Part shown: piece after piece, positions 461-46,745 of the stretch
Position numbering within the stretch: position 1 is the first letter of the stretch
Layout: every line of letters begins with the position of its first letter
DNA from: an uncultured Candidatus Saccharibacteria bacterium
GTDB taxonomy: Bacteria > Patescibacteriota > Saccharimonadia > CAILAD01 > CAZGYV01
DNA length: 64,000 nucleotides
Assembly: GCA_964530725.1 (NCBI GenBank)
Contig: CAZGYV010000001.1
Location: forward strand, 15,829 to 79,828
Direction of reading: 5' to 3'
The notes under the pieces: model-generated
The model's input: only the letters and a program-made list of their open reading frames with translations
Told to the model about the DNA's origin: nothing
The model's database searches: none
Made by a program: the position numbers and the translations under genes

Positions 461-1468
461 ATGCAAGCGGCAAATAAAATACCCATTACCGTCTTAACTG
501 GCTTTCTCGGCGCCGGCAAGACAACCGTGTTGAATTACATCCTTGTCAGTGGCCAGGGGCGTAAATTTGGCGCGATCGTCAACGATTTTGGTGATATTGG
601 CATAGATGGCAAGCTGGTGGAGAAAAAAACCGACAAGCAGCTCGAGCTAAGCAATGGCTGCATTTGCTGCAATCTGAACAATATGGACCTCACAGAGGCG
701 ATCGATCAGTTCACTCACCCTGCTTCACCGATGGATGAGATCTTGATAGAAGCTTCGGGCTTGGCCGCGCCCAAGGAGCTGCTGCTCACCTTGCGTGAGG
801 TGTTGAGTGAGCGAGTCGCATTGAGTGCCATCATTTGCGTCTTGGACGGCGAAAATTTCCTATCACTTGATAGTAATGAGGCTAAAATGGCTCGCGACCA
901 GATTAAATACGCTGATTTTGTACTGATCAATAAGTGCGATCTGATTGGTCAGAAAACCCGCCGCGAAATAGAGCAAATTGTCTTGGAGGCCAATCCCAAG
1001 GCGCGCCTGTTTGACATCGAGTACGGACGGGTTGATATTAATATTTTGCTCGGCAGTGGCCTGTCGAGCGCGTCAGATAAGTTACCGGATGGTACCAAGG
1101 CCGATCACGCGGCCCATCTTCACGGGCAATATCAAAGCCTTAGCTTTACTAGTGATAAACCGCTCCACCCGCTGGCCTTTCAGGAGTTTGTTAATAAAAA
1201 AATCCCCCGCCAGATCTATCGTGCCAAGGGCATAGTTGACTTGGGTGGCAAGGGCCACGATCGCAAATATATTTTTCAACTGGTGGGCGCGCGGGCTAAT
1301 CTGTCTTGGGAGGATTGGGCTGGTACAGCGCCAAAGACGGAGCTGGTATTTATTGGCCGAGATTTCGATGAGGATACGCTCAAGCGTGACCTCGAGGCTT
1401 GTGTGGACAGTGATCCGGCGAGTCAGCTTGAGGGCATGACGGTGCGCCTGCCTCGGCGTAATACTTAA
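461..1468 (+). CDS. COG0523/CobW-family G3E GTPase (putative metallochaperone)
   Basis: P-loop GFLGAGKTT, CxCC metal motif (NGCICCNL), EASGLAAP and NKCDL G-motifs, and a C-terminal CobW_C-like region; 335 aa. Confidence 0.85.
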   Translation: MQAANKIPITVLTGFLGAGKTTVLNYILVSGQGRKFGAIVNDFGDIGIDGKLVEKKTDKQLELSNGCICCNLNNMDLTEAIDQFTHPASPMDEILIEASGLAAPKELLLTLREVLSERVALSAIICVLDGENFLSLDSNEAKMARDQIKYADFVLINKCDLIGQKTRREIEQIVLEANPKARLFDIEYGRVDINILLGSGLSSASDKLPDGTKADHAAHLHGQYQSLSFTSDKPLHPLAFQEFVNKKIPRQIYRAKGIVDLGGKGHDRKYIFQLVGARANLSWEDWAGTAPKTELVFIGRDFDEDTLKRDLEACVDSDPASQLEGMTVRLPRRNT

Positions 1469-1474
1469 GTGTTT

Positions 1475-1666
1475 TTAGCCCGAACAAAATAGTCGATTTA
1501 TTATCAACTGCTTTGATCGGTCTTGCTGCTTAGCAGGTAGCCAAGCAGCAAGAGGCGGATTGGTAGGTTGTCGTCCCTTAGCAGATGACTGCCAGTAGAG
1601 CAGCATCACCAGAGCGAGCAAGATGATCACAGCGGTGACTAGGTGGCTGTAAAAGCGTTCCTTCAT
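1475..1666 (-). CDS. small single-pass membrane protein (63 aa), hypothetical
   Basis: Internal ATG (MKERFYSHLVTAVIILLALVMLLYWQ...) is preceded by a strong SD (caAGGAGGtacaggATG). It overlaps the stop of the upstream gene as ATGA and has one clear TM helix. Confidence 0.45.
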   Translation of the reverse strand: MKERFYSHLVTAVIILLALVMLLYWQSSAKGRQPTNPPLAAWLPAKQQDRSKQLIINRLFCSG

Positions 1667-2517
1667 CCTGTACCTCCTTGTCTTGAGAGACAGCTGTAAG
1701 TTCTCACGATTAAGCGAGTGACAGCTTCTAGCGAACAATCAGTGTTGTCAATGTAGATCTGCAGTTTGGGATTCTCATGGCATTTTCTAGCCAAATCTAC
1801 CGCCATGCGGTTGATATCTTCGGCCCGTGAGGAGCTATGACTTTCTGACCAACGGATGTTTTTCCTATTCTTGCGATCTGCCGGTCTGAGCGGCGCGACC
1901 TCTCGGGTGGCATCGAGCATATCGCGCTCGGCTATTTGAGCGACGATGGCCTGAAACGCGCCGTAGTCATCAACATCTTCACCCGATTCCATCATCCTGC
2001 GACGGGCTCGCTCGCGCGGGTCGGTATCGAGAAAGACGGCTAGCTTGAAGTCCCCGCGGTGCTCCCAGTAGCTGGATCTGCCATCGACGATTGCCACTTC
2101 TCCCCTGTCGCCGCATTGGCGCGCGAGGTGTCTGGTGCTTGCAATAACCCATGCACGCACTTCTGGCAAGCTAGAAACTAGCGAAACGTTTTTCTCGACT
2201 TCTCTACTACGAATGAACCGACTAATATCATCACTTTCGTAGTAAACGGTATCATCTCCTGCATCCATATGGACAAAGCGCCCGTACTCAAGAGCATTTT
2301 CGATAATAGCTCGTTGGGCAGCTATACTATGAGGATGATCAGATGAAGTAAGAAGCCTCTGGGTCGCTCTGCCGCCGAGTGCCGCGTAGGTGATGCCGCG
2401 ATAAAGCGCGCCGGTGTTGATGACCCAGCCATTGAGCTGCTCGGCTACCCGGCGAGCTGTCGTACTGCAGCCCGTGCCGGCCGGCCCGTCGATCACGATC
2501 ATGTTGAGCGCTGTCAT
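1663..2517 (-). CDS. cytidylate kinase-like P-loop kinase with C-terminal extension
   Basis: IVIDGPAGTGCSTTARRVAEQL P-loop followed by INTGALYRGITYAAL, then VDGRSS...KLAVFLDTDPRERARRR. This matches the Cmk pattern (IDGPxGxGK, DTGAMYR, GRD, FLTA..eRA.RR). At 284 aa it is longer than typical Cmk. Confidence 0.55.
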   Translation of the reverse strand: MTALNMIVIDGPAGTGCSTTARRVAEQLNGWVINTGALYRGITYAALGGRATQRLLTSSDHPHSIAAQRAIIENALEYGRFVHMDAGDDTVYYESDDISRFIRSREVEKNVSLVSSLPEVRAWVIASTRHLARQCGDRGEVAIVDGRSSYWEHRGDFKLAVFLDTDPRERARRRMMESGEDVDDYGAFQAIVAQIAERDMLDATREVAPLRPADRKNRKNIRWSESHSSSRAEDINRMAVDLARKCHENPKLQIYIDNTDCSLEAVTRLIVRTYSCLSRQGGTG

Positions 2518-2711
2518 TTGTTACCCCAATCTGGAAAAGAACGAAAAACCATCTCCGCTTATAGAGATGGCCTACCTTCCATTATTATATAATTATGTGC
2601 TGATAAGTCAATGGTGAAGTGCCACGTTACGAATCGGCACCTTATCAAGAAGGATCAGCCTCCTACTATCGACTACCAGTGTGGGGTGAAACTAGCGGCA
2701 TAAACGTGCGA

Positions 2712-2752
2712 GCCCCCGGAGAGACCCGCAGTATTGCAGGTGTCACGGGGGC
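2712..2752 (-). terminator. GC-rich hairpin just downstream of the 2757..3116 gene
   Basis: Perfect 7-bp arms GCCCCCG (2712-2718) and CGGGGGC (2746-2752) lie 5 nt after the stop. There is no U-tract. Confidence 0.4.
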
Positions 2753-2756
2753 GTGA

Positions 2757-3116
2757 TTAGCCGACTATGTTGAGGTGGGCTTGGGTGTGTGGGACGCTCT
2801 CGATGGCAACGCCACGCGAGGTGAAGAAATTGTTGAGAGCACGACTGATAGCGGCGTGCAGACGTACCTCGTACAGCTCGCGGCTCTCGGTGAACCAGGC
2901 TAGAATCACCAATTCGATGTCGACTGGCAAACTCTGGCTCTCGAAAATACCGTCGGTCTTGACGGTTCTGCCGGGAAAGAGGTCCTCGCCGAGCTCATCG
3001 TTGAATACCCTGGCGACGATGGCTTCGGCTTCTGAGGCGAATTGCTCGACCGTGAGGTTGAGGTTGGCCAGGGTATCGCGCCCTGCCTGCTTGGTGTAAA
3101 TGACATGGTGCGGCAC
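2757..3116 (-). CDS. hypothetical protein (119 aa), possibly tautomerase-superfamily-like
   Basis: Starts MPHHVIY (Pro at position 2, as in CHMI/4-OT-type tautomerases) and has a beta-alpha-beta feel in PVDIELVILAWFTESRELYEVRLHAAISRAL. The assignment is weak. The gene is high-GC relative to the backbone. Confidence 0.3.
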   Translation of the reverse strand: MPHHVIYTKQAGRDTLANLNLTVEQFASEAEAIVARVFNDELGEDLFPGRTVKTDGIFESQSLPVDIELVILAWFTESRELYEVRLHAAISRALNNFFTSRGVAIESVPHTQAHLNIVG

Positions 3117-3203
3117 AGTTGCCCCTTTCAGAGCGGATCTGGTTGTTAAGATGGTCTTATCGACCCCACAGCCTGCAAATTACTTTGTAAACTCTGAGGT
3201 CGA

Positions 3204-3228
3204 CCGGGGTGCTCTATGCGCACCCCGG
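3204..3228 (-). terminator. GC-rich perfect hairpin downstream of the 3250..3684 gene
   Basis: CCGGGGTGC (3204-3212) pairs with GCACCCCGG (3220-3228): 9 bp perfect, 7-nt loop, no U-tract. Confidence 0.4.
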
Positions 3229-3249
3229 AGCGATCCTTACTGAATGGAG

Positions 3250-3684
3250 CTAGTTCGCGGTCGTCGGCCAGGGGTCTCCCTCGGTAAGGTGTCTGATGAG
3301 CTTGTCATGCCAGTCGTCACGAACCACGTTGATGAACGTGGTGCCGCCTCCGACGCTCTCGTTGAGGGACTCGTTGCTGGTGCAGATCACCATAATGCAA
3401 TCAAGCCAACTGGCTCCGTAGCGAGCACCGCAGACGTGCTTGGTCAGGACGGAAAATGTATTGCCGTCAAGCTGAACCGACAGGAATGCACCGGTGGCCA
3501 AGTCGGCAGTCGTGGGGTAAATGCCGGCGTGGGGCTGGGAGCGCTCCAAGACGGAGATATCCTCGTCGCTAACATCGAGAGCCTGTTGGTAGGCCTGCGC
3601 GTGGCTGACGAATCGCTGCCACATGCTGGCCTCACGGCTGGTGGTTTCGTCGATGATCGAGCGTACCGCATTTCGAAAGCCCAT
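3250..3684 (-). CDS. hypothetical protein (144 aa; maximal ORF extends to 3741)
   Basis: I prefer the internal start MGFRNAVRSIIDE because of the SD (aaaGGAGccctATG); the ATG at 3741 has none. High-GC codon usage. I recognise no family. Confidence 0.4.
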   Translation of the reverse strand: MGFRNAVRSIIDETTSREASMWQRFVSHAQAYQQALDVSDEDISVLERSQPHAGIYPTTADLATGAFLSVQLDGNTFSVLTKHVCGARYGASWLDCIMVICTSNESLNESVGGGTTFINVVRDDWHDKLIRHLTEGDPWPTTAN

Positions 3685-3867
3685 AGGGCTCCTTTCACTT
3701 GAAGGATCGTCATTCACCGCGGATGCGGCAAATGTGTTCATTGCGCGAACCTGTAGATATTAGCACAACTATTGCTTTTTATCAAGGTTTGTGGTGTGAT
3801 TTCGTTTATTCTTCTTAGGACAATTGGCCGGGAGAAAATGCTCGAGGGCGCTGCTTGTTCCGGCATG

Positions 3868-3898
3868 AAAAAACCCGAGACTTAGACTCGGGTTTTTT
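3868..3898. terminator. bidirectional rho-independent terminator
   Basis: AAAAAACCCGAG-acttaga-CTCGGGTTTTTT: a 6-bp GC core flanked by an A-run and a T-run, so it can terminate in both directions. Confidence 0.7.
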
Positions 3899-3899
3899 C

Positions 3900-3922
3900 A
3901 TGGTGAACGTGGTTGAATCGAA
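3900..3922 (-). other. degenerate tRNA 3'-end-like remnant (candidate left attachment site)
   Basis: ATGGTGAACGTGGTTGAATCGAA compared with the tRNA-Glu 3' end ATGGTGATCCCACGGGGAATCGAA (10930-10953). The shared parts are ATGGTGA (ACCA end) and GAATCGAA (T-loop). The stems do not match and there is no cloverleaf. Confidence 0.3.
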
Positions 3923-4081
3923 TTGGAACGATATCCTTATGGAGTTCAGGCGACTCCATCACCTTATCAGGGGATTATCTCTGGCATAATCCATTCGCTA
4001 CGGTGATAGAACTAGTTTATGCTTGACACATAATGCTAATGCTTTTGTTATAGGCTTCTGAACCCTATAATACAGTGTAAT

Positions 4082-7000
4082 ATGTCTACATTACATAAAA
4101 GAGTATGGGGTAAAATCAAAAGCTACTTTGTAAGGGATGAAGCCGAGAAGCAAACACACCCCCTAAAGTCTCTCAGGCCAGCAAAGAATATTGATGGTCA
4201 CTCCGCTTATGTTGACGACATCGCTGAAGCGGTTGCAAATGATGACATTCTGAATATAGCCCTTACTGGCAGCTACGGTTCTGGTAAAAGTAGTATCCTC
4301 AGAGTCTTCAAGGATTCAACAAAGAAGAATAAAGTAGTCCAAATATCGTTCTCAAGCCTAGGGGCGAATATACAGGGTTATATCAATAAGTCTGAAGATG
4401 ATGAACACGAGAAGCTAAACAATCTCACAAACCTAATCCAAAAAGAGATAGTCAAACAGATACTCTTCAAGGAAAAGTACAAGAATATACCGTATTCAAA
4501 GTACAAGAGAGTCTCCAGCCCACGCTTGCCCCTAGTTTTTCTTAACGCATCATTAATATCTATAGTTCTGTTGGCCGTATCATTCGCAAACGGGTGGCTG
4601 GCTCAATTGTTTAAAGTTGCAGCCATTTCGGATTTCTGGTGGCAGGTAGCACTCTGTGCAGACCTATTCATTATCAGTACCTCGCTTATTGCTATCTTCG
4701 TGCTTACGCTATCTGGCAAAATACGGATAGATAAAATTGGTGCATCTTCAATATCATTATCACTCTCGGGAAGTGCAAGTTATTTTGACGAATACTTAGA
4801 TGAGATTATCTACTTCTTTGAAGCTGGACGATACAACGTGGTTATCTTTGAAGATATTGATAGGTTTGAGAGCCTTTATATTTTCGAGACCCTTCGACAG
4901 CTCAACACCATTCTGAATAACTCAGAGCAGATAAAACAACCCGTGACTTTCATCTACGCAATTAAAGACAGTATTTTCGCCAAAGAAGTTGTTGATGCTA
5001 AGAACGACCACAAAGAGCGAAGTGCAAACAGAACCAAGTTCTTTGACCTCATCATTCCTGTAGTTCCTTTCATTACTAATGTGAACTCACAAGACCACAT
5101 ACTTCAGGTTTTTGATAGCGAGTACCGAGACATCATCAGAGAGCCAGCCTCAGTAGTGGCAAAGCATATTACTGATATGCGTCTTGTGGTTAACATCTAT
5201 AACGAGTTTCTAATATTCAAGGATAAAGTTGTACTCCCCGACTCAGGCTTATCTCTGGATAAGTTATTTGCAGTTGTTGCTTACAAAAACTGGAATCTGG
5301 ATGAGTTTGAAAAAGTTAAAGATGGTGATAGTTCAATCGATAAGGTTATTGCTGCACACAGCAAATATGTTGACGATAGAATACGTACCATTAACTCTGA
5401 GATACGAAGCAAAGAAAGTGCCCTAAAGACTATCAATGCCATTGCTGAACGGTCACAGAGCTTAGGTAAGGTTCTTACCGACTATATAGCCGATGTATTG
5501 CGACAGGTGCAAGGTTCTGCTCAGTCCTATAGCCTTAACAGCACTTCTTATGACTTAGAAGATTTCACAACCGAAGATTTTTGGAGCGATATCATCAAAG
5601 GGGGTGAGACCAGTACTCTTATTGTCACCTATCGAGCATCAACTGGCTACACACAAAACCTTACACTGACGGCAGCCGACATCAGTAGTATTTGTAGCGA
5701 CAGCCTTGATAAAACCCAGTGGGATACAAAAGCAGCAGAAGCTATTGAAGACGAAATAGGAGTACTACGAGCCGAAGCTAATAAACTCCCATACCAAAGT
5801 ATCAAGGAACTCATTCAGGAATCACCAGAGTTTCTCGCTAAATTAAAGGAGCTCGATGGCGGTAAGGTTGTTGCTGACGAGGTAGGATGGCAACTCATTA
5901 AGGCTGGCTATATCGATACCGAATTCGTACACTACACCTCGCTATACTACAGCACCAGCATGAGCCTCAAAGCTCGTAGCTTCTTGCTAAATAATGTCCG
6001 ACTGAACAAACAGTCTTTGCATCACAAGTTTGAAAACGATGATGACATACAAGCACTTCTAGAAAAAATGGGCAGTACCTATCTTAATGATAAGAGCATG
6101 TACAACATCTCAATAGTTGATTACTTGCTCAGGAAGGATGACTCAAGAGTAGATAAGATAATAGCTAACTTGGCAGGCGGTGACGCTGACGACCTTCAAT
6201 TTATCAATGCATATGTGAAGGAGGGTTCTGAAGTAACCAAGTTTATCCAACAGCTTGCTGCACGATGGGATGGAATCTTTACGTATATTACAGGTGATAA
6301 CGAAATGGATGATAAAAAGAAGGGTCGTTTCATTAGCCTTGCATTAACTGCTGGTTCTGAGAGTATCAAGTATAAAACCAATCCATCCGTTAAAGGTTTT
6401 ATTGAGGCCAATAAAACAAACGTCCAGATACTTACAAACGATAACCAAGATAGCTCAGCCGTTGATGATGCTTGCCGATTGCTCATGCAGTTTGGAATTG
6501 AATTCGATACTCTTGATAATCTGAACGAGCAAGCAAAGGAAGCCGTAAAAGATTATGGTCTCTATACGGTCAATGAGCAGAACATGACATCTATCCTTGG
6601 AAGTCCAAGAGTGCCTTTGGATACAATCAAACGCACAAATGAATATGTCTACTCTCACTTGCTAGGGCATCTTGGTGAGTACGCAGACCTATTCCAGAAT
6701 CGAGCAGGCTCAGAATATGCACTTGCAGGCGAAGACGGATTTGAAGCAGTAATTGATGAGGTGTCAAAGATTTCGATGGATGACTTAGGATTAATTCTGG
6801 CTAATGCTGACCTGTCGAACTGTATCGTTCAAGATATTAATAAACTTGGTTCAGACACATGGCCTCTACTGGTTGAGAATGTCATTCTGTCCAACACTCT
6901 AAGTAACGTTCTGACATACTTTGAGCTGTCACATGCCGATGACAAGACAGTAATCAATGACCTGCTGGCTACATACCTTACTGAGGCTGAAACGGTTGTA

Positions 7001-7753
7001 CTTGATAAAGACTTTGCGGAGTATACTGCAGAAAATGTAAAGACCTTTGTTTTGGCCGTAGTAAATAGTTCAAAAATCGATGTGGAGACCACGGTTAATA
7101 TTGTCCATGATTGCTACACCGAAGACTACATTGACATATCAGATATTAAACCCCAAAACGGTAGCCTCTACGGTGCGTTGCTATCAAAGGACTGCATCGA
7201 AGATACGCAGGCGAACTTCGAGGCAATTAGAAACCTTTCTTGGGAAACGAAAAGCTCATACATAGCAAACTCCAAGAAGTTCTTAGAGTACATTGCAGCC
7301 CTCGCTCTCACTACGGACGAGCTAAACTCTATTGCTGAAGACGGCTCAATTCCTGATGCCGTTAACGAGTATATAGTCGATAACATCGTTGCTTATTCTG
7401 CTGAGTTATCTATCATGTCAGCTGCACACTTTGCCGAGTTTGCATTACGTAAGTCGAAGGTACTCAGTGCTGATTCACTTAAGGTTATTCTTGACGGAGC
7501 GGATAAGGAAACTAGCATTAAGCTCATAGGTCTAGCTTTAAATAATCTCGACTTTTCAAATATGCTCACACTCATGCCAGTTGTTGGTGGAGAGTATAAG
7601 AAGCTATCCGAGAAAAACAAACGACCATTATTTGAGAATACCGACTACAACTTAAACCTCATTGCCCGACTTAAAGAACTGGGCTTGGTGAGTAGTTATG
7701 AATTAAAAGATAATGAAACAAAAATAAAAGTAGTTATGAAGTCACGATGGTAG
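4082..7753 (+). CDS. KAP-family-like P-loop NTPase with transmembrane insert (1223 aa; YobI-like)
   Basis: Walker A LTGSYGSGKSS and Walker B-like VVIFEDIDRF are separated by two long hydrophobic helices (LVFLNASLISIVLLAVSFANGWLAQLF and WWQVALCADLFIISTSLIAIFVLTL). About 900 aa of unassigned, largely helical-looking sequence follows. Confidence 0.7.
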   Translation: MSTLHKRVWGKIKSYFVRDEAEKQTHPLKSLRPAKNIDGHSAYVDDIAEAVANDDILNIALTGSYGSGKSSILRVFKDSTKKNKVVQISFSSLGANIQGYINKSEDDEHEKLNNLTNLIQKEIVKQILFKEKYKNIPYSKYKRVSSPRLPLVFLNASLISIVLLAVSFANGWLAQLFKVAAISDFWWQVALCADLFIISTSLIAIFVLTLSGKIRIDKIGASSISLSLSGSASYFDEYLDEIIYFFEAGRYNVVIFEDIDRFESLYIFETLRQLNTILNNSEQIKQPVTFIYAIKDSIFAKEVVDAKNDHKERSANRTKFFDLIIPVVPFITNVNSQDHILQVFDSEYRDIIREPASVVAKHITDMRLVVNIYNEFLIFKDKVVLPDSGLSLDKLFAVVAYKNWNLDEFEKVKDGDSSIDKVIAAHSKYVDDRIRTINSEIRSKESALKTINAIAERSQSLGKVLTDYIADVLRQVQGSAQSYSLNSTSYDLEDFTTEDFWSDIIKGGETSTLIVTYRASTGYTQNLTLTAADISSICSDSLDKTQWDTKAAEAIEDEIGVLRAEANKLPYQSIKELIQESPEFLAKLKELDGGKVVADEVGWQLIKAGYIDTEFVHYTSLYYSTSMSLKARSFLLNNVRLNKQSLHHKFENDDDIQALLEKMGSTYLNDKSMYNISIVDYLLRKDDSRVDKIIANLAGGDADDLQFINAYVKEGSEVTKFIQQLAARWDGIFTYITGDNEMDDKKKGRFISLALTAGSESIKYKTNPSVKGFIEANKTNVQILTNDNQDSSAVDDACRLLMQFGIEFDTLDNLNEQAKEAVKDYGLYTVNEQNMTSILGSPRVPLDTIKRTNEYVYSHLLGHLGEYADLFQNRAGSEYALAGEDGFEAVIDEVSKISMDDLGLILANADLSNCIVQDINKLGSDTWPLLVENVILSNTLSNVLTYFELSHADDKTVINDLLATYLTEAETVVLDKDFAEYTAENVKTFVLAVVNSSKIDVETTVNIVHDCYTEDYIDISDIKPQNGSLYGALLSKDCIEDTQANFEAIRNLSWETKSSYIANSKKFLEYIAALALTTDELNSIAEDGSIPDAVNEYIVDNIVAYSAELSIMSAAHFAEFALRKSKVLSADSLKVILDGADKETSIKLIGLALNNLDFSNMLTLMPVVGGEYKKLSEKNKRPLFENTDYNLNLIARLKELGLVSSYELKDNETKIKVVMKSRW

Positions 7754-7919
7754 ACGTGGGGTGCGGTAGGGCTCGCCAAGCGTAGCGGCACAAGTCCTGT
7801 TTAGCGGGATACTACTTTATAGCATAAGCATGCCATAAGCAAAAAACGAAAACTCCATACCTCTGCATCTGTAAATTGGCGGATTTCTAGTAGTTTTTGG
7901 CTATGACTAACTATACGTA

Positions 7920-8414
7920 TTAGTAGCTTTTAGGAATAGCCTTACAAACTTCATCAAGAAGCTCATCAGGACTCATGTTGAGGTTTTGGTTTAAGTCTTT
8001 AAACTCCATAGTTATCATCACATAGACCATAGTCTGGAAGTTATTTGGGTGTTCTAGCTTCTCTGCAACTTGGGTTGTATATGCAGTTAGTCGTAATAGT
8101 TCGTCTGGCTTTTTGAATCCAGTTCTTGCAGAGACTGTCATAAGTCGCAACTCTTCCTTACTGGCATTAGGATTCTGGCGTTTATGCATGTCATACATCT
8201 TCTTTTGCGTCTTGGCTATTGAAACAGGACTACCTGCTTTTTTGAATAGTCCACCAATCCACTTGAAGATAGCAACAACCCAAAAGAACAGACCAAACCA
8301 TACAAGGATACCCGCAAACATTGAGGGTAGTAAATGGAATATACTAGGCAGCATTAAAGCTAACCCGATAAGGAACAGTTGATAAGGCTTAATACTTTTT
8401 CTTTGCTTCGACAT
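7920..8414 (-). CDS. hypothetical two-TM membrane protein (164 aa)
   Basis: Start MSKQRKSIKPYQ is preceded by an SD (ttAAGGAGaaaaacATG). Hydrophobic hairpin LFLIGLALMLPSIFHLL / FAGILVWFGLFFWVVAIF, followed by a soluble C-terminal domain. The 196-aa track ORF has an unsupported N-terminal extension. Confidence 0.55.
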   Translation of the reverse strand: MSKQRKSIKPYQLFLIGLALMLPSIFHLLPSMFAGILVWFGLFFWVVAIFKWIGGLFKKAGSPVSIAKTQKKMYDMHKRQNPNASKEELRLMTVSARTGFKKPDELLRLTAYTTQVAEKLEHPNNFQTMVYVMITMEFKDLNQNLNMSPDELLDEVCKAIPKSY

Positions 8415-8575
8415 GTTTTTCTCCTTAAAAATAAAAACGACACCACGCTTGGTGTCTAAACCAGTAACAGAGTTTTTAAGCCCGATTACTTCGCATGGTG
8501 CCGTTTTCAAGGCTTAAAACCACGCAAAATTACTTGCGGTACTCTATAACTGGTTTAGACTATTTCATTATATAA
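8415..8575 (-). promoter_or_regulatory. structured 5' leader: long closing stem, two internal hairpins, then a terminator-like hairpin abutting the SD
   Basis: Arms 8454-8473 and 8541-8560 pair 18/20. Inner stems are 8474-8482/8511-8519 (9 bp) and 8523-8527/8534-8538 (5 bp). Hairpin GACACCA-cgct-TGGTGTC (8439-8456) is followed on the minus strand by GTTTTTATTTTT and then AAGGAG-ATG. Confidence 0.45.
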
Positions 8576-8856
8576 CAAAAACACCCCCATGTTGCTCAAA
8601 TCACCCCTGAGCCCAAACGATATTTTGCGTTTAAAATCAAAAGTTGATGTTATGCCCATCTCGTAGATAAAAGTGCGTGTTTTGACGGTTTATTTACAGT
8701 ATGTTGGTCGATTATTTTGCTTCCAAAATTAAAAGATGAGCATAAGTCCACCTCACAAATATGAGCGAAAAAAATGAAGCAAGTTCAGCGGTATTTCCGA
8801 CCACTATGGAGTTTTTGGTTATCCACAGACACTTGTCAAAATAAACATAAAAGGTA

Positions 8857-8885
8857 TTGACTTTTTGGGCAAAGTTTGATATAAT
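8857..8885 (+). promoter_or_regulatory. near-consensus sigma70-type promoter
   Basis: TTGACT (8857-8862), a 17-nt spacer, then TATAAT (8880-8885). Confidence 0.6.
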
Positions 8886-8891
8886 ACCAAC

Positions 8892-9128
8892 AGTTAATGA
8901 CGTGGTACACATGTTAAATCTCTTAGCTAAATCATACACAGAACCGACACGGCGTGGTGTTTAGCTAGTTATTTGATAGTCCTATAGTCACTACTCTTGT
9001 TGGAAGCAATAAAGAGAGAGCATCAGAGTTTCGCCTTCGTGAAAATATGCCCATTCTCCTACGTTGTCCTACTAAATAATTAGTAAGATAACAGGCTGAT
9101 TTAGTACGCCCTCGGACGGGTGTTTTTT
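8892..9128 (+). ncRNA. candidate ~235-nt non-coding transcript (or leader of the recombinase operon)
   Basis: Runs from the consensus promoter at 8857-8885 to a weak terminator: CGCCC-tcggac-GGGTG plus TTTTTT (9107-9128). Only 6-17-codon ORFs lie inside. It contains several hairpins, e.g. CTACTAAataaTTAGTAAG. Confidence 0.35.
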
Positions 9129-9154
9129 ATATCTGCCAAAGAATAAGGGTTAAC

Positions 9155-9376
9155 ATGCCACGACAAAGAACATGGAGCGGTCAGATGCTCACAATATCAG
9201 ATAAACCTATCATTACCACAGGAGAAGCTCGCAAGATACTAGGCAAGGGTTACGAAGAGCTTTCAGATGAACACCTAATGGGAGTAATTGTTTCACTTTC
9301 TAAGATAGCAGACTATTTCCTGACTAGGATTAGTGTTCCAGAAAACTATAAGGTATGTGGTAAAATGGGGATATGA
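9155..9376 (+). CDS. small protein (73 aa), possible HTH/recombination directionality factor
   Basis: ATGA-coupled to the recombinase start. The segment ITTGEARKILGKGYEELSD looks like a helix-turn-helix. I recognise no family. Confidence 0.4.
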   Translation: MPRQRTWSGQMLTISDKPIITTGEARKILGKGYEELSDEHLMGVIVSLSKIADYFLTRISVPENYKVCGKMGI

Positions 9377-10971
9377 ATACGATGGATAAAAAAGAGCCAA
9401 TCAAAGTTTATGGTTATAAGCGTGTGTCTACTGAGGAGCAAGTTGATGGGATGTCTTTACATACTCAAGAGCTTGCAATTCAAGCCTACGCAGAGCAGCA
9501 CAATCTTGAGGTGGTGCATATCTTTCATGACGATGGAATATCCGCCAAAACAGCCAAGCGCCCGCAACTTCAAGAGATGCTCGCAAAACTCACAGCCAAA
9601 GATAACGAGGTGCGTGGTGTAGTTGTTTACAATCTCAGTCGTATCTCTCGTGATTTAGAGTCATACAGTCGTGATATAGGCTATCATCTTTCGGCAAAAG
9701 GCGTTCGTCTGTACTCTACAGTTGAAAACATTGACGATACACCAGAGGGTCGTTTGATGCGTAATATTGCACTCTCTATCCACCAGTACGATAACGATAC
9801 AAAAAGTCGAACAGTTAAAGACAATATGAAACAAGTTGCTCTTGAGGGTTGGTGGCAAGGCAATATCCCCTACGGATATAGCCGTGTTAAAGTACCGATT
9901 GGCATTAAGGACAAAGACGGTAAAACTAAGGAGCGTCTCACTCTCGAACCTGATAGCAATAACGACTTGAGCGACAAGATGCGTATGATGCTAGAGCGGT
10001 TCAGTGAGGGTGATTTGAAACAGTCCGAGCTTACTGATTATGCTGAGAGTATCGGCCTATACAGCCCAAAGGGTGAACGTTTTGCACCTCAGTCAATGAA
10101 TAACATTCTAAGAAATATTACCTATGCGGGCTTTGTGTGTAATAAGATGACAGACTTTGAACCTGTAAAGGCTAAACACGTAGGTCTTATCTCGCTTGAG
10201 ACATATTTACGTAATCAGGCTGTTCTTGATGGTCGTAAGCCTGATGAGGCGATGCCTCGCTTTACTGCTAGCTACCCTCTCAAGCACTCTCTGTTATGTA
10301 TTAACTGTCATAAACCCTTAACAGGTAGTGCACCTACTGGAGGTTCTGGTAAGAGCTCACCTCGCTATCACTGCACAAGATGTACGGGTACTGGCTCAAA
10401 AGGTCTTGATAGAACGAATGAGCTATTTGAAGCATTCTTAAACGATGTTACGCCTACAGATAAGATGATTAAGCTCTTTGATGTGATTGTACGCCGTATC
10501 GCCAAAGACAAGCTCTCAAACGTGAATAAGGCTATCAGCGATGTTAGAGACGATATGACCAAGATAGACACTGATATGCAGAAAGCACTTCAGTCTATGC
10601 TCGATGGCGATATCAGTAAGCAAGAGAAAGAAGACTACCAGTCGTCATTACGTATTAAGCGACTCAACCTAGAGGACGAACTTAATAAGCTACGAGACAT
10701 ACAGAGCCTCAATGAGTCTACTATTACCTATGTTTGTAACTTTATGGACGCTCCTGCTCGTATGTGGCAAGATGCAGACGCAGAGACAAAAGTCATCTTC
10801 CAACAGATGGTTACAGAGAACGGTATTGTATTCGACCTCAAGAACGAAAAGTTTGGAACGGACGGTTTGAGTATGTTTTACAGATTGAAAGACAACAAAA
10901 AAGACCCATCAAAGGCTGATGAGTCCCTTATGGTGATCCCACGGGGAATCGAACCCCGGTTACCAGGATGA
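9373..10971 (+). CDS. large serine recombinase (532 aa)
   Basis: Resolvase-type N-terminal domain (VYGYKRVSTEEQ with catalytic Ser; GISAKT..RPQLQEML; VVVYNLSRISRD). Recombinase domain (WQGNIPYGY). Zn-ribbon CINCH...YHCTRC. Coiled-coil C-terminal region. The last 41 nt overlap tRNA-Glu in antisense. Confidence 0.9.
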   Translation: MNTMDKKEPIKVYGYKRVSTEEQVDGMSLHTQELAIQAYAEQHNLEVVHIFHDDGISAKTAKRPQLQEMLAKLTAKDNEVRGVVVYNLSRISRDLESYSRDIGYHLSAKGVRLYSTVENIDDTPEGRLMRNIALSIHQYDNDTKSRTVKDNMKQVALEGWWQGNIPYGYSRVKVPIGIKDKDGKTKERLTLEPDSNNDLSDKMRMMLERFSEGDLKQSELTDYAESIGLYSPKGERFAPQSMNNILRNITYAGFVCNKMTDFEPVKAKHVGLISLETYLRNQAVLDGRKPDEAMPRFTASYPLKHSLLCINCHKPLTGSAPTGGSGKSSPRYHCTRCTGTGSKGLDRTNELFEAFLNDVTPTDKMIKLFDVIVRRIAKDKLSNVNKAISDVRDDMTKIDTDMQKALQSMLDGDISKQEKEDYQSSLRIKRLNLEDELNKLRDIQSLNESTITYVCNFMDAPARMWQDADAETKVIFQQMVTENGIVFDLKNEKFGTDGLSMFYRLKDNKKDPSKADESLMVIPRGIEPRLPG

Positions 10972-11005
10972 GAACCTGGCGTCCTAACCGCTAGACGATG
11001 GGACC
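10931..11005 (-). tRNA. tRNA-Glu (anticodon CUC), 75 nt with encoded CCA
   Basis: Manual cloverleaf: acceptor GGTCCCA/TGGGATC, D-arm GTCT-AGCGGTTA-GGAC, anticodon arm CCAGG-TTCTCAT-CCTGG, T-arm CGGGG-TTCGATT-CCCCG, discriminator A, then CCA. Confidence 0.9.
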
Positions 11006-43399: not shown

Positions 43400-44620
43400 T
43401 TATTTTTTCCAGCTGCGCAGGGCGTCTTTGAGGGCTTTTTTACCTTTCAGGTAAGTGTAGCCAACGTAGCTTAGACCGCTCATGCCCAGTACTCCGGCAC
43501 CGGCACTCTCAATACCAGTTTGTGGTATTTCGCCGCCGCCAGCAATCACTGGTGCGCTTGGCGTTGGGGTGATTACTTCACCAGGTGTTACAGGTGTTGG
43601 GGTTGGTGTAGGTGTAATCGATGGCGTGACTGTTGGAGTTGGAGTCGGGGTAATAGTTGGGGTTGGCGTAGGAGTCACGCTTGGAGTGGTGGTAGGAGTT
43701 GGTGTAGGCGTAACTTTCGGCTTTTTAACCTTGACGATCGCCTTGTCACAACCCTTTTGGTTGTCATTGGCAGTGAAGCAAGCTTCGTTGTCAATGTAGG
43801 TGCCACCTGGTGTGTTACCATCAACGTTGACAGTAATAGTAACGTCTTTGATTTGATTTGGAGCCACATCAGGGTAGTTGAAGTTAATTACCCGAGTGGG
43901 GTCGCCATTGGCGAGCTTCACTTCGGCTGGCAGCGGGTCGGTCATCTTAATACCGGTTAGCGCGCCAGTACCAACGTTGGTCATATAGACAACGTACTTC
44001 AGCTTGTCGCCAGCTTCGACTTCCAAGGCAGTTTCCTTGGTGTCGGCAGCGTAAGCGGTGTTGGCATCTTTACTGAGGTTGATAACACGCTTATAAATCT
44101 GGCCAAAAGGCTTGTTCATCGGCTTGATGGGGTTACCGCAAGACTTGATGATCGCCCAGTGGAAAGTACCACCTTCCATGCTAACAAAAGCTGGCAAGGA
44201 ATTGGAGTTAAACGATACGGCTGGCGGACGCATCCACAGCGAACCGTCTTTGGTCGAGTTCTGCAAGAACTCACGGCCGGAGCTAAAAACTCCAGTACCT
44301 ACTTGAGCACCGTTCACCCAGACAGAGCCGTCTTTGCGAACTTCGCCCTCGACGGTGTTCGGACTCATAATGCCGGCTTCGGTGATACCGCGGCCTTCAT
44401 TGTAATAAATCTGCTTGAGGTTGGCCGATGAATTCGCACCATCGCCACCATTAATTTTACTGATTAATTCTTGCTTATCAGCCGCGCCACATTTCATCAC
44501 AGCATTGCTGTCACAGTCGCGGGCAGCGTCAACTTTAACTAGTGGCAAGACTATCGAAGCCACCAGTAGCAAAGCGCTAACAATACCAATCAATTTGGTA
44601 CTAATTTTGCCTTTCTTCAT
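43400..44620 (-). CDS. sortase-anchored surface protein (PQTG sorting signal) with Thr/Pro linker
   Basis: Signal peptide (LIGIVSALLLVASIVLPLVKVDA), a DUF11-like beta domain, a (TP)n linker, and C-terminal IPQTG plus a hydrophobic stretch plus KGKKALKDALRSWKK. Confidence 0.8.
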   Translation of the reverse strand: MKKGKISTKLIGIVSALLLVASIVLPLVKVDAARDCDSNAVMKCGAADKQELISKINGGDGANSSANLKQIYYNEGRGITEAGIMSPNTVEGEVRKDGSVWVNGAQVGTGVFSSGREFLQNSTKDGSLWMRPPAVSFNSNSLPAFVSMEGGTFHWAIIKSCGNPIKPMNKPFGQIYKRVINLSKDANTAYAADTKETALEVEAGDKLKYVVYMTNVGTGALTGIKMTDPLPAEVKLANGDPTRVINFNYPDVAPNQIKDVTITVNVDGNTPGGTYIDNEACFTANDNQKGCDKAIVKVKKPKVTPTPTPTTTPSVTPTPTPTITPTPTPTVTPSITPTPTPTPVTPGEVITPTPSAPVIAGGGEIPQTGIESAGAGVLGMSGLSYVGYTYLKGKKALKDALRSWKK

Positions 44621-44665
44621 ATATTCTCCTACTCACCCTCGACTTTATTATTTAACGTAACTATT

Positions 44666-44694
44666 ATTCTACAAGACAAAAGCATTTTTGTCAA
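44666..44694 (-). promoter_or_regulatory. sigma70-type promoter of the surface-protein gene
   Basis: On the minus strand: TTGACA (44694-44689), a 17-nt spacer, then TAGAAT (44671-44666). An SD AGGAG lies in front of ATG 44620. Confidence 0.6.
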
Positions 44695-44713
44695 TACTTT
44701 TTTGTTATGTTTA
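44687..44713. repeat. left copy of collinear direct repeat flanking the high-GC block
   Basis: TTTGTCAA (44687-44694) and TTGTTATGTTTA (44702-44713). The same two words occur in the same order at 49428-49435 and 49448-49459. Confidence 0.6.
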
Positions 44714-44791
44714 AGGTTTGAGTTTTTACGTATCCGGTTCTATTAACTACTTTTTAATTAATAGAATTAGAGACGTGAAAATGGTTGGGGT

Positions 44792-44840
44792 GGGGACCCC
44801 CTTCTAGTCGTTTTTTGATAAACGCTAGAAGAGGGTCCCC
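44792..44840 (-). terminator. long GC-rich hairpin ending the high-GC operon
   Basis: GGGGACCCCCTTCTAGTCG / CGCTAGAAGAGGGTCCCC: ~17 bp with one mismatch and one bulge, 12-nt loop, 25 nt after the last stop codon. Confidence 0.55.
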
Positions 44841-44865
44841 TTGAACTTGTCAGAGGTGGTCTTGG

Positions 44866-45780: not shown

Positions 45781-46082
45781 TATCCCCTCCTTCTCGTTTG
45801 GCGGCAACCAGACTTCTCGGCCCGACGCATGCTGCGCGCGAGTTTGGGATCTCGCATCAACATTCGCCGGGTGTCGGCCATGGCTTCACTCTCCCAGTGC
45901 TCTTGGCGCAACACGTCAAAGTGCTGGGTGATCTTGGCCTGACGTTCCTTGGCGGCCTTGGCGCGCTTGCTCTTTCGACGAGCCTTTTTCAGCCAGCGAG
46001 CGGCGTGAACCGCTACGACATAGCTGAAGATTAGCCCGAGTAATACGGCAGCAATCCAGAATTGAGCCGAGTTTTCACTCAT
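45780..46082 (-). CDS. small TM + highly basic protein (100 aa), hypothetical
   Basis: MSENSAQFWIAAVLLGLIFSYVVAVHAARWLKKARRKSKRAKAAKERQAK... The ATG lies 1 nt after the upstream TGA (TGAGATG). Confidence 0.5.
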   Translation of the reverse strand: MSENSAQFWIAAVLLGLIFSYVVAVHAARWLKKARRKSKRAKAAKERQAKITQHFDVLRQEHWESEAMADTRRMLMRDPKLARSMRRAEKSGCRQTRRRG

Positions 46083-46083
46083 C

Positions 46084-46593: not shown

Positions 46594-46704
46594 TGCTTGC
46601 CCTTTCTACTAGACAATATGTTGACAAGTTTCACTGCTTTTAAGGGATTTAAAAGCAGATTCAAGCCGTCAAGCAGTATTATACTCCTATCAAAGAATGA
46701 TTGG

Positions 46705-46745
46705 GTGACCCCTCCCATCTCAGGTAGTGAGACGAGAGGGGTCAC
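46705..46745 (-). terminator. perfect GC-rich hairpin inside the high-GC block
   Basis: GTGACCCCTC (46705-46714) pairs with GAGGGGTCAC (46736-46745), with a nested TCTCA/TGAGA stem. Lies 35 nt after the stop of 46780..47400. Confidence 0.5.

What the first reader, a model, noticed from the sequence alone, without database searches (positions are those of the whole stretch)
3901..10971. AT-rich ~7-kb integrative island at tRNA-Glu whose only sizeable cargo is a 1223-aa membrane-inserted P-loop NTPase
From about 3.9 kb to the 3' end of tRNA-Glu (10931) the DNA turns visibly AT-rich. By eye it is about 35-40% GC against about 50% in flanking housekeeping genes; this was not computed. The segment starts right after a bidirectional terminator (3868-3898). 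It ends with a large serine recombinase (9373-10971) preceded by an ATGA-coupled 73-aa ORF that could be a directionality factor. In between lie only a KAP-like NTPase (4082-7753), a convergent 164-aa two-TM protein and ~0.7 kb of structured non-coding DNA. Small recombinase-bounded tRNA islands carrying one giant NTPase are the typical habitat of anti-phage or abortive-infection genes. I cannot name a described defence system with this composition (KAP NTPase + small TM protein + candidate ncRNA). Such an island would be notable in a reduced CPR-type genome.
Basis: partly seen in the sequence, partly recalled or inferred. Interest (0 to 1): 0.8.

Follow-up and report, generated by a model that had tools for sequence, protein, structure and literature searches.

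The report
Mobile tRNA-Glu island carrying Tmn defence
A 7-kb mobile DNA island, inserted by a serine recombinase at the end of a tRNA-Glu gene of a Saccharimonadia (CPR) bacterium, carries a homologue of Tmn, an already described single-gene membrane ATPase that defends against phages; the cargo is therefore known, but the way the island integrates is unusual.

Summary
Window 3900-10936 (7,037 bp) has 41.0% GC against 49.4% elsewhere and is a strong tetranucleotide outlier (z = 7.1).

It is bounded by a 7-bp direct repeat, ATGGTGA, at 3900-3906 and 10930-10936. The right copy is the complement of the CCA end of tRNA-Glu(CUC).

The 1223-aa protein is a YobI-family P-loop NTPase (Pfam PF20693, 6.9e-101; PADLOC Tmn, 1.2e-63). 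It has two transmembrane helices between Walker A and Walker B and helical C-terminal arms.

The 164-aa membrane protein and the 740-nt gap are not partners of Tmn. Tmn occurs without them, and the small protein occurs with other cargo.

Related islands (recombinase 81-98% identical) sit at other sites with different cargo, and one relative has an unoccupied tRNA-Glu site.

The unexpected part is the integration module. attP lies inside the 3' end of the recombinase gene. Integration therefore replaces a conserved 29-aa tail, whose displaced coding copy lies at 3900-3989, with a 13-aa tail read from the antisense of the tRNA.

Anti-phage function and excision are inferred, not shown.

The parts
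3864..3902 (.). Palindromic hairpin with an A run and a T run. Interpreted as the original host terminator of tRNA-Glu, displaced 7 kb by the insertion.
   Evidence: The arms are 19 nt long and 95% complementary. All 8 further left ends found in metagenomes, and L007, also have a host-specific hairpin with a T run directly before the core.
3900..3906 (+). attL core ATGGTGA, the left copy of the 7-bp direct repeat.
   Evidence: In 9 other islands the first base of attL is T (host-derived), while attR always has A. The crossover therefore lies within TGGTGA.
3900..3989 (+). Displaced 29-codon native C-terminal tail of the recombinase (MVNVVESNWNDILMEFRRLHHLIRGLSLA*), equal to the P' arm of attP.
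   Evidence: It is 83-88% identical in DNA to the left ends of L007, L009, L010 and L012, and 85% identical to the 3' end of an uninterrupted recombinase gene in L005. Variability by codon position across 13 copies is 0.08/0.03/0.19, against 0.49 after the stop. A homologous tail is contiguous with an 81%-identical recombinase in L008/P0127.
4009..7753 (+). Tmn cassette: upstream region plus the gene 4082-7753 for a 1223-aa YobI-family/Tmn transmembrane P-loop NTPase.
   Evidence: Pfam PF20693, 6.9e-101 over positions 1-362 of 363. PADLOC Tmn, 1.2e-63. Walker A at residues 63-70, TM segments at about 150-172 and 187-212, Walker B at 253-261. AF2 model with mean pLDDT 83. dN/dS 0.07-0.08 against L005 and L006. 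The cassette is 92% and 87% identical in DNA to L005 and L006, whose islands use a different recombinase; homology starts at 4009.
7756..7920 (.). Conserved non-coding backbone segment of about 165 nt that recurs at cassette borders in related islands.
   Evidence: blastn matches to L010 220-385 (82.5%), L005 22715-22886 (81%) and L007 4586-4692; L005 13714-13875 lies within the 92%-identical Tmn-cassette match. It has weak predicted structure and no Rfam hit.
7920..8414 (-). 164-aa protein with two TM segments, function unknown. It is island cargo independent of Tmn.
   Evidence: Two hydrophobic segments and a ribosome-binding site. No Pfam, PADLOC, PHROG or NCBIfam hit. It has 16 homologues; the only source names given are Saccharibacteria/Saccharimonadales. 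The two contexts examined (L021, L023) are other serine-recombinase islands without Tmn.
8415..8600 (-). Structured 5' leader of the minus-strand cargo gene. It includes the hairpin 8454-8473/8541-8560 and a terminator-like hairpin, 8456-8439, just before the ribosome-binding site.
   Evidence: z = -3.8 for 8415-8856. It is 88% identical to L006 15618-15785, where it precedes an unrelated gene.
8857..9128 (+). Strong promoter (TTGACT, 17 nt, TGaTATAAT; 8857-8885), then a conserved leader or small RNA of about 235 nt, ending in an intrinsic terminator (9106-9128) upstream of the 73-aa ORF and the recombinase.
   Evidence: The promoter matches 11 of 12 consensus positions plus the TG motif and is the best in the region. 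The leader is 78-90% identical in L007, L010 and L011. Folding z = -2.7.
9155..9376 (+). 73-aa ORF translationally coupled (ATGA) to the recombinase. Candidate excision or regulatory factor.
   Evidence: It is conserved at 65-90% and in the same position in L007, L009, L010, L011 and L012. It matches no known family.
9373..10971 (+). Large serine recombinase, 532 aa in the integrated state. The last 13 aa (MVIPRGIEPRLPG) are read from the antisense of the tRNA.
   Evidence: Pfam Resolvase 2.7e-27 and Recombinase 1.3e-6. PHROG 95 integrase, 3.9e-69. A 98%-identical copy sits at a non-tRNA site in L007.
10899..10929 (-). Hairpin plus T run inside the recombinase 3' coding end. On the tRNA strand it lies directly downstream of tRNA-Glu, so the element supplies a replacement terminator.
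   Evidence: Terminator scan, 14 pairs. Equivalent hairpins are visible at the same place in L006 and L008.
10930..10936 (+). attR core ATGGTGA. Positions 10931-10936 are the complement of the last six bases (TCACCA) of the tRNA, and 10930 is the first base beyond it.
10931..11005 (-). tRNA-Glu(CUC), the integration target. It is left intact.
   Evidence: ARAGORN. Rfam tRNA, 61.7 bits.

Best explanation
Window 3900-10936 is a 7.0-kb integrative island in a Saccharimonadia chromosome.

Integration. A large serine recombinase (9373-10971) inserted the island by recombining an attP that lies inside the 3' end of its own gene with the CCA end of tRNA-Glu(CUC). The crossover lies within TGGTGA. Integration has four consequences:
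- The tRNA stays intact.
- The host's tRNA terminator (3864-3902) moves to the far end of the island.
- A hairpin with a T run inside the recombinase coding sequence (10899-10929) becomes the new terminator.
- The recombinase's conserved 29-aa C-terminal tail (now at 3900-3989) is replaced by 13 aa read from the antisense of the tRNA. Excision would restore a 548-aa protein.

Backbone. It comprises the left end, a ~165-nt non-coding segment, two divergent structured leaders, the 73-aa ORF and the recombinase. This backbone is shared by islands with quite different cargo.

Cargo. Here the cargo is one cassette encoding a YobI-family/Tmn homologue, plus an unrelated 164-aa membrane protein. By homology with E. 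coli Tmn (PMC13001434), the 1223-aa protein is anchored in the membrane by two helices inserted in its P-loop domain. It would sense a phage protein with its helical cytosolic arms. It would then hydrolyse ATP and drive ion export, arresting the infected cell in a plasmolysis-like state that blocks phage spread.

Shown: composition, the ends, the domain architecture, purifying selection on the gene, and mobility of both the backbone and the cassette. Inferred: present-day excision, the anti-phage role, the trigger, and the downstream physiology.
For: Island and ends:
- The composition is an outlier.
- ATGGTGA lies at both ends.
- The left end is in frame with, and homologous to, the tail of uninterrupted recombinases in L005 and in L008/P0127.
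- The tail evolves like coding sequence, with variability highest at the third codon position and a sharp rise after the stop.

Mobility:
- Five more islands with window-type recombinases (81-98% aa identity) have the same ends and different cargo. L007 sits at a non-tRNA site.
- Eight further left ends in metagenomes each have a different host terminator before the core.
- L001 (69% aa identity in DUF3048, same tRNA-Glu/DUF3048 synteny) has no island.
- Most of the 111 recombinase homologues end in MV plus a tRNA-antisense tail.

Tmn identity:
- PF20693 at 6.9e-101 and PADLOC Tmn at 1.2e-63.
- Walker A, two TM segments, then Walker B.
- Invariant GxxGxGKSS, ED..R, N, KF and R positions across 36 homologues.
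- The AF2 model (pLDDT 83) shows a coiled coil with an alpha/beta domain, then a long array of short helices. All the weak PDB matches are HEAT/ARM solenoids.
- dN/dS is 0.07-0.08.
- The neighbours of the gene differ in the window, L005 and L006, as expected for a stand-alone gene. In L005 it sits next to a type IIG restriction-modification enzyme.
Against: - No circular (attP) junction of this element was found in the JGI metagenome contigs or IMG/VR, so current excision is not demonstrated.
- The closest relative with an unoccupied site is only 69% identical in the flanking protein. Its left flank differs from the window's.
- The PADLOC Tmn profile matches only the N-terminal 55% of the model. 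Identity to named YobI-family proteins is about 30%.
- The Tmn study lists no Patescibacteria or Actinomycetota. Transfer of function from E. coli clades is therefore an extrapolation.
- No phage, trigger or phenotype data exist for this lineage.
- Whether ion export and plasmolysis apply to an ultra-small episymbiont is unknown.
Confidence: 0.72

Rival explanations
1. A three-component defence system: the NTPase, the 164-aa TM protein and a non-coding RNA work together. This is the composition the first reader suggested.
For: The three are adjacent inside one island. The small protein is membrane-inserted like the NTPase. The gap DNA folds better than shuffled sequence.
Against: L005 and L006 carry 95% and 90% identical NTPases without any homologue of the 164-aa protein. 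Homologues of the 164-aa protein (84-93% identical) lie in other islands, with a type IIG restriction-modification enzyme or a PARIS-like AriAB and no NTPase. The non-coding leaders are conserved in L006, L007 and L010 next to unrelated genes. Tmn is reported to have no conserved operon partner (PMC13001434).
Confidence: 0.05
2. A fossil island: an ancient insertion that is now fixed and immobile, with the NTPase domesticated as a lineage-specific membrane protein that has no defence role.
For: No attP junction was found. The recombinase lacks its native tail in the integrated state. No transfer genes lie in the 7 kb.
Against: The recombinase ORF is intact. A 98%-identical copy lies at a different site in another sample, and the left end there is 88% identical in DNA. 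The displaced tail keeps its reading frame and its stop position in 12 of 13 other copies, with coding-type substitutions. The composition has not drifted towards that of the host. The NTPase cassette is shared at 87-92% DNA identity between islands whose recombinases are only about 23% identical.
Confidence: 0.12
3. The YobI-family protein mainly serves the element rather than the cell. It would act in addiction, in exclusion of competing mobile elements, or in conflict with the episymbiont's host bacterium, instead of phage defence.
For: It is carried on a mobile element at a hotspot where elements pile up in tandem (L005, L006). Defence genes on mobile elements often act in conflicts between elements (general knowledge). 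Saccharibacteria live attached to other bacteria.
Against: All experimental data for the family concern phage defence (PMC13001434). Sister islands carry classical anti-phage genes: a type IIG restriction-modification enzyme, a PARIS-like AriAB and an HNH nuclease.
Confidence: 0.1
4. A degraded prophage or phage satellite.
For: It has an integrase next to a tRNA and a small size. The recombinase matches a PHROG integrase family.
Against: No other ORF matches any PHROG family. There are no capsid, packaging, replication or repressor genes. Related islands carry only variable cargo.
Confidence: 0.03

Closest known systems
Tmn (transmembrane NTPase), YobI family; PADLOC system 'tmn'; Wu et al. 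2026 preprint, PMC13001434
   Same: Size (1223 aa; about 1270 aa in clades Ia and Ib). A full-length YobI-type P-loop domain. Walker A and Walker B with two TM helices inserted between them. A coiled-coil 'proximal arm' with an alpha/beta domain, then an alpha-solenoid-like 'distal arm'. A stand-alone gene in variable, mobile, defence-rich contexts.
   Different: About 30% identity to named family members. The PADLOC profile matches only the N-terminal half. The host phylum (Patescibacteria/Saccharimonadia) is not among those reported. The carrier is a chromosomal serine-recombinase island, not an F-type plasmid. Activity, oligomeric state and trigger are untested.
KAP family P-loop NTPases (Aravind et al. 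2004, Genome Biol 5:R30), including PifA of the F plasmid
   Same: Membrane-associated signalling P-loop NTPases linked to defence. There is a weak Pfam KAP_NTPase similarity over residues 43-358.
   Different: The KAP_NTPase score (17.5 bits) is below its gathering cut-off of 20, while the YobI model scores 338.8 bits. It should be filed under YobI, not KAP.
Large-serine-recombinase integrative elements (phiC31, Bxb1 or A118-type prophage integrases; SCCmec Ccr; XisF)
   Same: Resolvase catalytic domain, recombinase domain, Cys4 zinc ribbon and a coiled-coil region. A short core, with no long direct repeats at the ends. Weak NCBIfam similarity to CcrB and XisF.
   Different: The target is the CCA end of tRNA genes. 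tRNA targets are typical of tyrosine integrases and, from my own knowledge, unusual for serine integrases. attP lies inside the recombinase ORF, so integration exchanges the C-terminal tail.
SSV1-type archaeal integrases, whose attP lies within the int gene (fuselloviruses; own knowledge)
   Same: The attachment site lies inside the integrase gene. Integration into a tRNA gene splits the gene, and excision restores it.
   Different: Those are tyrosine recombinases of archaeal viruses, and the split inactivates the gene. Here a serine recombinase loses only its last 29 aa and keeps all recognisable domains.
Recombinase-associated defence islands and defence-carrying integrative elements (for example PMC10201445, PMC10121019; small serine recombinases as defence markers, PMC13552941)
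   Same: A site-specific recombinase with a hotspot for exchangeable defence cargo. Sister islands carry a type IIG restriction-modification enzyme, a PARIS-like AriAB and an HNH nuclease.
   Different: Very compact (4.4-7 kb). Found in CPR hosts. Uses a large rather than a small serine recombinase. Much of the cargo matches no known family.

Membership tests
Tmn / YobI-family transmembrane NTPase | YobI-type P-loop NTPase domain | tested here: met
   Pfam PF20693: E = 6.9e-101, 338.8 bits, cut-off 27, profile positions 1-362 of 363.
Tmn / YobI-family transmembrane NTPase | [quoted passage not shown] | tested here: inconclusive
   Walker A GSYGSGKS (63-70) and Walker B VVIFEDIDR (253-261) are present. 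G63, G66, G68, K69, S70, E257, D258, R261, N279, K319, F320 and R367 are invariant in 36 homologues. The motifs are therefore met.
Tmn / YobI-family transmembrane NTPase | Two transmembrane helices inserted inside the P-loop domain, between Walker A and Walker B | tested here: met
   Hydrophobic segments at about 150-172 and 187-212 (Kyte-Doolittle mean 2.4) lie between residues 70 and 253. The AF2 model has long helices there.
Tmn / YobI-family transmembrane NTPase | Cytosolic arms: a proximal coiled coil with an alpha/beta domain, and a distal alpha-solenoid of ARM/HEAT-like repeats | tested here: met
   AF2 model, mean pLDDT 83 and above 90 over most of the C-terminal 800 residues. In model numbering (add 23 for full-length numbering) it has long helices at 395-452, strands at 456-507, then about 40 short helices. 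The top PDB matches are PP2A PR65, beta-catenin and importins, but none reaches E <= 0.001. The support is qualitative only.
Tmn / YobI-family transmembrane NTPase | Match to the PADLOC Tmn profile | tested here: inconclusive
   PDLC02220: E = 1.2e-63, 213.5 bits, but only model positions 17-720 of 1273. PADLOC's own coverage rule could not be applied. The C-terminal half is reported to be variable.
Tmn / YobI-family transmembrane NTPase | Stand-alone gene without a conserved operon partner | tested here: met
   The neighbours differ in the window, L005 and L006.
Tmn / YobI-family transmembrane NTPase | Anti-phage protection that depends on ATP hydrolysis; decameric assembly; Mg2+ export and plasmolysis | not testable with these tools
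   Known only from E. coli variants (PMC13001434).
KAP family P-loop NTPase | Match to Pfam KAP_NTPase above the gathering score | tested here: not met
   17.5 bits against a cut-off of 20.
Large serine recombinase (integrase) | N-terminal resolvase catalytic domain with the serine nucleophile, a recombinase domain, and a zinc ribbon with a coiled coil | tested here: met
   Resolvase 2.7e-27 (residues 12-159; the RVSTEEQ motif with S19). Recombinase 1.3e-6 (residues 203-288). CxxC...CxxC, read directly in the sequence at about residues 300-335. PHROG 95 integrase, 3.9e-69. Zn_ribbon_recom was not detected by Pfam in this protein.
Site-specific integrative island | Defined att sites, with the same element at different sites and an unoccupied target in relatives | tested here: met
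   The core ATGGTGA lies at both ends. Five further islands with both ends and eight further left ends have different flanks. L001 is unoccupied.
Site-specific integrative island | Demonstrated excision (a circular attP junction or empty-site reads in the same population) | tested here: not met
   The attP pattern gave 0 matches in the metagenome contigs and in the viral contigs. Raw reads of the source sample were not available.

The most novel reading that the evidence does not exclude
The island would represent an undescribed family of compact (4.4-7 kb) large-serine-recombinase elements of Saccharimonadia/CPR with four properties:
- They use the CCA end of tRNA genes as attB.
- They carry attP inside the recombinase ORF. 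Integration then exchanges a conserved, selected 29-aa C-terminal helix for a tRNA-antisense tail. This would be a built-in molecular mark of the integrated versus the excised state, and it could set directionality.
- They bring their own replacement terminator for the tRNA.
- They act as plug-in carriers that shuttle defence cassettes between genomes with very few other defences. The cassettes include Tmn, a type IIG restriction-modification enzyme, a PARIS-like AriAB and many genes of unknown family.
Probability: 0.45. Interest if true: 0.65.

Novelty: new variant of a known kind. Interest (0 to 1): 0.45.

Why it matters
The defence gene itself is not new. It extends Tmn/YobI to Patescibacteria, a phylum outside those listed in the published survey (Pseudomonadota, Bacillota, Bacteroidota and a single archaeal genome). 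CPR cells are tiny and are thought to rely mostly on restriction-modification. A defence based on ATP collapse and plasmolysis in an episymbiont would be worth testing.

The integration module matters more.
- A serine recombinase family that systematically targets tRNA 3' ends offers a natural set of attP/attB pairs. Such pairs could be useful as genome-engineering tools.
- The split-tail arrangement may be a new way to tell the integrated state from the excised state.
- The cargo slot of these islands gives short, well-delimited lists of candidate new defence genes in CPR bacteria. Many of the genes there match no known family.

Tried and rejected
- Long direct repeats at the island ends: none. 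This is as expected for a serine recombinase. The ends were found by comparison with related loci instead.
- My first reading of 3901-3930 as a decayed tRNA 3' fragment was wrong. It is the displaced recombinase tail, the P' arm, which resembles the tRNA arm only through GAATCGAA.
- An exact-sequence look-up of the flanking DUF3048 protein found no strain-level relatives.
- The attP junction pattern found nothing in the metagenome contigs or IMG/VR.
- Rfam (E <= 1) found nothing in the island except the tRNA.
- The ~165-nt backbone segment gave only -8 kcal/mol by RNAalifold, so it is not convincingly a structured RNA. The motif GAAAACTCCATAC is not over-represented within the window.
- The 164-aa and 73-aa proteins matched nothing in Pfam (E up to 10), PADLOC, PHROGs or NCBIfam.
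- Foldseek against the PDB found no significant match and no solved Tmn structure.
- The uninterrupted recombinase-plus-tail in L005 is probably not a free attP. More likely it is a tandem insertion into the attL of a resident island, because a typical island left end and cargo follow it.
- The prophage or satellite reading was rejected because only the integrase matches a phage family.
- Acquisition from actinobacterial hosts is not supported. The named ~30% homologues are a mix of Actinomycetota and Pseudomonadota.

Full report
**1. Observation**

The composition shift is real.
- The segment between the two att cores (3900-10936, 7,037 bp) has 41.0% GC, against 49.4% for the rest of the window.
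- None of 184 non-overlapping 7-kb windows elsewhere falls below 46.1% (z = -3.3).
- Its tetranucleotide profile is the strongest outlier (L1 distance 0.41 against 0.14 +/- 0.04, z = 7.1).
- GC3 is 0.34-0.42 in the island genes and 0.55-0.58 in the flanking cobW, cmk and DUF3048 genes.

All the listed features exist at the stated coordinates. They are the palindromic hairpin 3864-3902, the 1223-aa ORF, the convergent 164-aa ORF, a 740-nt gap, the ATGA-coupled 73-aa ORF, the 532-aa recombinase, and tRNA-Glu(CUC) at 10931-11005 on the minus strand. The organism is a member of the Saccharimonadia (CPR/Patescibacteria): the best genome match to the flanking DUF3048 protein is a Saccharimonadia MAG at 69% identity.

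**2. The large cargo protein is a Tmn/YobI homologue**

- It matches Pfam YobI-ATPase (PF20693) end to end at 6.9e-101. KAP_NTPase is below its threshold (17.5 bits against a cut-off of 20).
- PADLOC's Tmn profile matches at 1.2e-63 over the N-terminal 700 residues.
- Walker A (GSYGSGKS, 63-70) and Walker B (VVIFEDIDR, 253-261) are separated by two strongly hydrophobic segments at about 150-172 and 187-212. TM helices inserted in the P-loop domain are the signature of the family (PMC13001434).
- In an alignment of 36 homologues the Walker residues and further N, KF and R positions are invariant. Their spacing matches the residues that were mutated to loss of function in E. coli Tmn-25. I could not align Tmn-25 itself.
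- An AlphaFold2 model of residues 24-1223 (mean pLDDT 83) has four parts: a Rossmann-like core, two long membrane helices, a coiled coil with an alpha/beta domain, and a long array of short helices. Its PDB matches are weak, with none at E <= 0.001. All of them are HEAT/ARM solenoids such as PP2A PR65, beta-catenin and importins. This agrees with the published proximal-arm and distal-arm description.
- The gene is under strong purifying selection (dN/dS 0.07-0.08 against the 95% and 90% identical copies in L005 and L006).
- Full-length homologues at about 30% identity are named "YobI family P-loop NTPase" in Actinomycetota and Pseudomonadota. There are matches in 463 Escherichia plasmids, which fits the published link to F plasmids.

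Tmn is a characterised single-gene defence. It forms a membrane decamer, senses T2 RIIB through its arms, hydrolyses ATP and exports Mg2+. The result is a plasmolysis-like arrest, and the ATP drop can trigger Gabija and Septu (PMC13001434). The published survey found it in Pseudomonadota, Bacillota, Bacteroidota and one archaeon. It does not mention Patescibacteria.

**3. The small membrane protein and the "ncRNA" are not part of a Tmn system**

The 164-aa protein has no homologue in L005 or L006. Its 16 homologues carry only Saccharibacteria or Saccharimonadales names where a source names them. The two contexts I examined are other serine-recombinase islands without Tmn. One carries a type IIG restriction-modification enzyme (L023). 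The other carries an ATPase-Toprim protein that matches PARIS AriAB at 4.8e-40 (L021).

The 740-nt gap consists of two divergent regulatory leaders that belong to the backbone.
- A minus-strand leader lies before the cargo gene. It has a terminator-like hairpin just ahead of the ribosome-binding site. It is 88% identical in L006, where it precedes an unrelated gene.
- A plus-strand unit has a near-consensus promoter (8857-8885), a leader of about 235 nt and an intrinsic terminator (9106-9128) ahead of the 73-aa ORF and the recombinase. It is 78-90% identical in L007 and L010.

Both fold better than shuffled sequence (z = -3.8 and -2.7). There are too few sequences for a covariation test, and Rfam has no match.

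**4. The island is a site-specific integrative element with unusual att sites**

*Ends.* Comparison with related loci fixed them.
- ATGGTGA occurs at 3900-3906 and at 10930-10936. In the right copy, positions 10931-10936 are the complement of the tRNA's terminal TCACCA.
- Immediately right of the left core, 3900-3989 is an in-frame 29-codon ORF fragment, MVNVVESNWNDILMEFRRLHHLIRGLSLA*. It is 85% identical in DNA to the 3' end of an uninterrupted recombinase gene in L005. It is also homologous to the tail of P0127/L008, a recombinase 81% identical to the window's.
- The window's recombinase instead ends ...SL-MV-IPRGIEPRLPG*, read from the antisense of the tRNA.
- So attP lies inside the recombinase gene, the crossover is in TGGTGA, and integration swaps the tail.

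*The same architecture elsewhere.* Five more islands have window-type recombinases and both ends: L007 (98% aa identity), L009 (86%), and L010/L011 and L012 (81%). Their sizes are 4.4-6.7 kb and their cargo is unrelated. Eight further left ends were pulled from metagenomes. Each is preceded by a different host hairpin terminator.

*Position of the crossover.* In 9 of these other islands the first base of attL is T, from the host, whereas attR always has A. This places the crossover to the right of that base.

*The tail is coding sequence.* Across 13 copies it varies mainly at third codon positions (0.08/0.03/0.19), and variability jumps to 0.49 after the conserved stop. It must therefore be translated in some state, most simply the excised one.

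*Terminators.* The hairpin 3864-3902 is best explained as the host's original tRNA terminator. A hairpin with a T run encoded within the recombinase 3' end (10929-10899, minus strand) replaces it.

*The wider recombinase family.* Of the 111 database homologues of the recombinase, most end in "MV" followed by a tail encoded by the antisense of one tRNA or another. Targeting of tRNA 3' ends is thus a property of the family.

**5. Mobility and the unoccupied site**

- L007 carries a 98%-identical recombinase and an 88%-identical left end, at a non-tRNA pseudo-site next to a type IV secretion cluster.
- L001 keeps the tRNA-Glu/DUF3048 synteny without an island. It has only a 19-nt duplicate of the tRNA end, about 160 bp away.
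- The Tmn cassette (homology from 4009 to 7753 or 7916) is shared at 87-92% DNA identity with islands whose recombinases are only about 23% identical to the window's. The cassette therefore moves between backbones.
- L005 and L006 look like tandem arrays at the same hotspot.
- I found no attP circle junction in the assembled collections. Present-day excision is inferred, not shown.

**6. Comparison with known systems, and novelty**

The cargo is a new, divergent member of a known defence family in a new phylum. Genomic islands with defence genes have been reported in Patescibacteria (PMC12455944).

The integration module is a variant I could not find described. Three full-text searches on serine recombinases, tRNA targets, genomic islands, and Saccharibacteria mobile elements returned nothing relevant. 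The nearest analogy, from my own knowledge, is the split int gene of SSV1-type archaeal tyrosine integrases.

**7. Verdict**

The "integrative defence island" reading is supported. The "undescribed three-part system" reading is not. Interest is moderate: the defence gene is known, while the recombinase's attachment-site arrangement and the cargo slot deserve follow-up.

Noticed in passing
window 9373-10971 and proteins P0121-P0231: Most of the 111 homologues of the recombinase end in 'MV' plus a peptide encoded by the antisense of a tRNA gene. Examples are GIEPRLPG, GVEPALSG, GFEPMTFGSASQRSIQLSYGC and KGVEPLIFWMRTRRPGPLDDGTT. The family therefore integrates at the CCA end of several different tRNAs. 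A minority keep a non-tRNA tail with a conserved W-N motif (DNA motif TGGAAC, 17 nt from the core).
   Followed up: partly
L001 9665-9683 and 9827-9902: The unoccupied relative has a 19-nt duplicate of the tRNA-Glu 3' end (TTGGTGATCCCACGGGGAGT) about 160 bp from the real tRNA. It may be a scar of an earlier integration or excision at this hotspot.
   Followed up: no
window 7756-7920; L010 220-385; L005 13714-13875 and 22715-22886; L007 4586-4692: A conserved non-coding segment of about 165 nt, containing GAAAACTCCATAC, recurs at cassette borders in related islands. Its 3' part also precedes the Tmn cassette in L005 and L006. It might mark cassette exchange points. Predicted structure is weak.
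   Followed up: partly
L007 10494-18444: A type IV secretion/conjugation cluster (TrbL, TraC-like, VirB4/TraG-like ATPases, CHAP, pilin) lies directly next to a 98%-identical copy of the recombinase on a Logan metagenome contig that carries this island family. It could be a conjugative element that helps such islands spread.
   Followed up: no
L009 5055-9556; L010 392-1935; L012 6685-9533: Most cargo genes of the sister islands have no PADLOC hit, and the precomputed annotation lists no Pfam family for any but one small DUF1508 protein. The only PADLOC hit is a marginal PD-T4-6 match in L010 392-1168. They sit in the same slot that holds Tmn, a type IIG restriction-modification enzyme or an HNH nuclease elsewhere, so they are candidate new defence genes of CPR bacteria.
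   Followed up: partly
L021 10735-12771; L023 2123-5311: Islands that carry homologues of the 164-aa membrane protein also carry a fused ATPase-Toprim protein matching PARIS AriAB (4.8e-40) or a MmeI-like type IIG enzyme. The small protein is usually followed there by a gene of 221-229 aa that is absent from the window.
   Followed up: partly
window 461-3863: Between the histidine-kinase gene at the window's left edge and the island lie cobW, cmk and a GC-rich stretch (2.0-3.75 kb, 53-58% GC). That stretch has overlapping ORFs on both strands and no family hits. In L001 the kinase gene lies about 0.6 kb from tRNA-Glu, so this block may be an older insertion or a rearrangement.
   Followed up: no
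window 44000-50000: A second compositional anomaly, this time GC-rich: 54.5-59.1% against about 49%. It was not examined.
   Followed up: no
L006 8067-9747: A frameshifted (split) serine recombinase lies directly upstream of the Tmn cassette. Its C-terminus (…LESERWRTIL…) resembles the native tail motif. This suggests tandem accretion of islands at tRNA-Glu.
   Followed up: no
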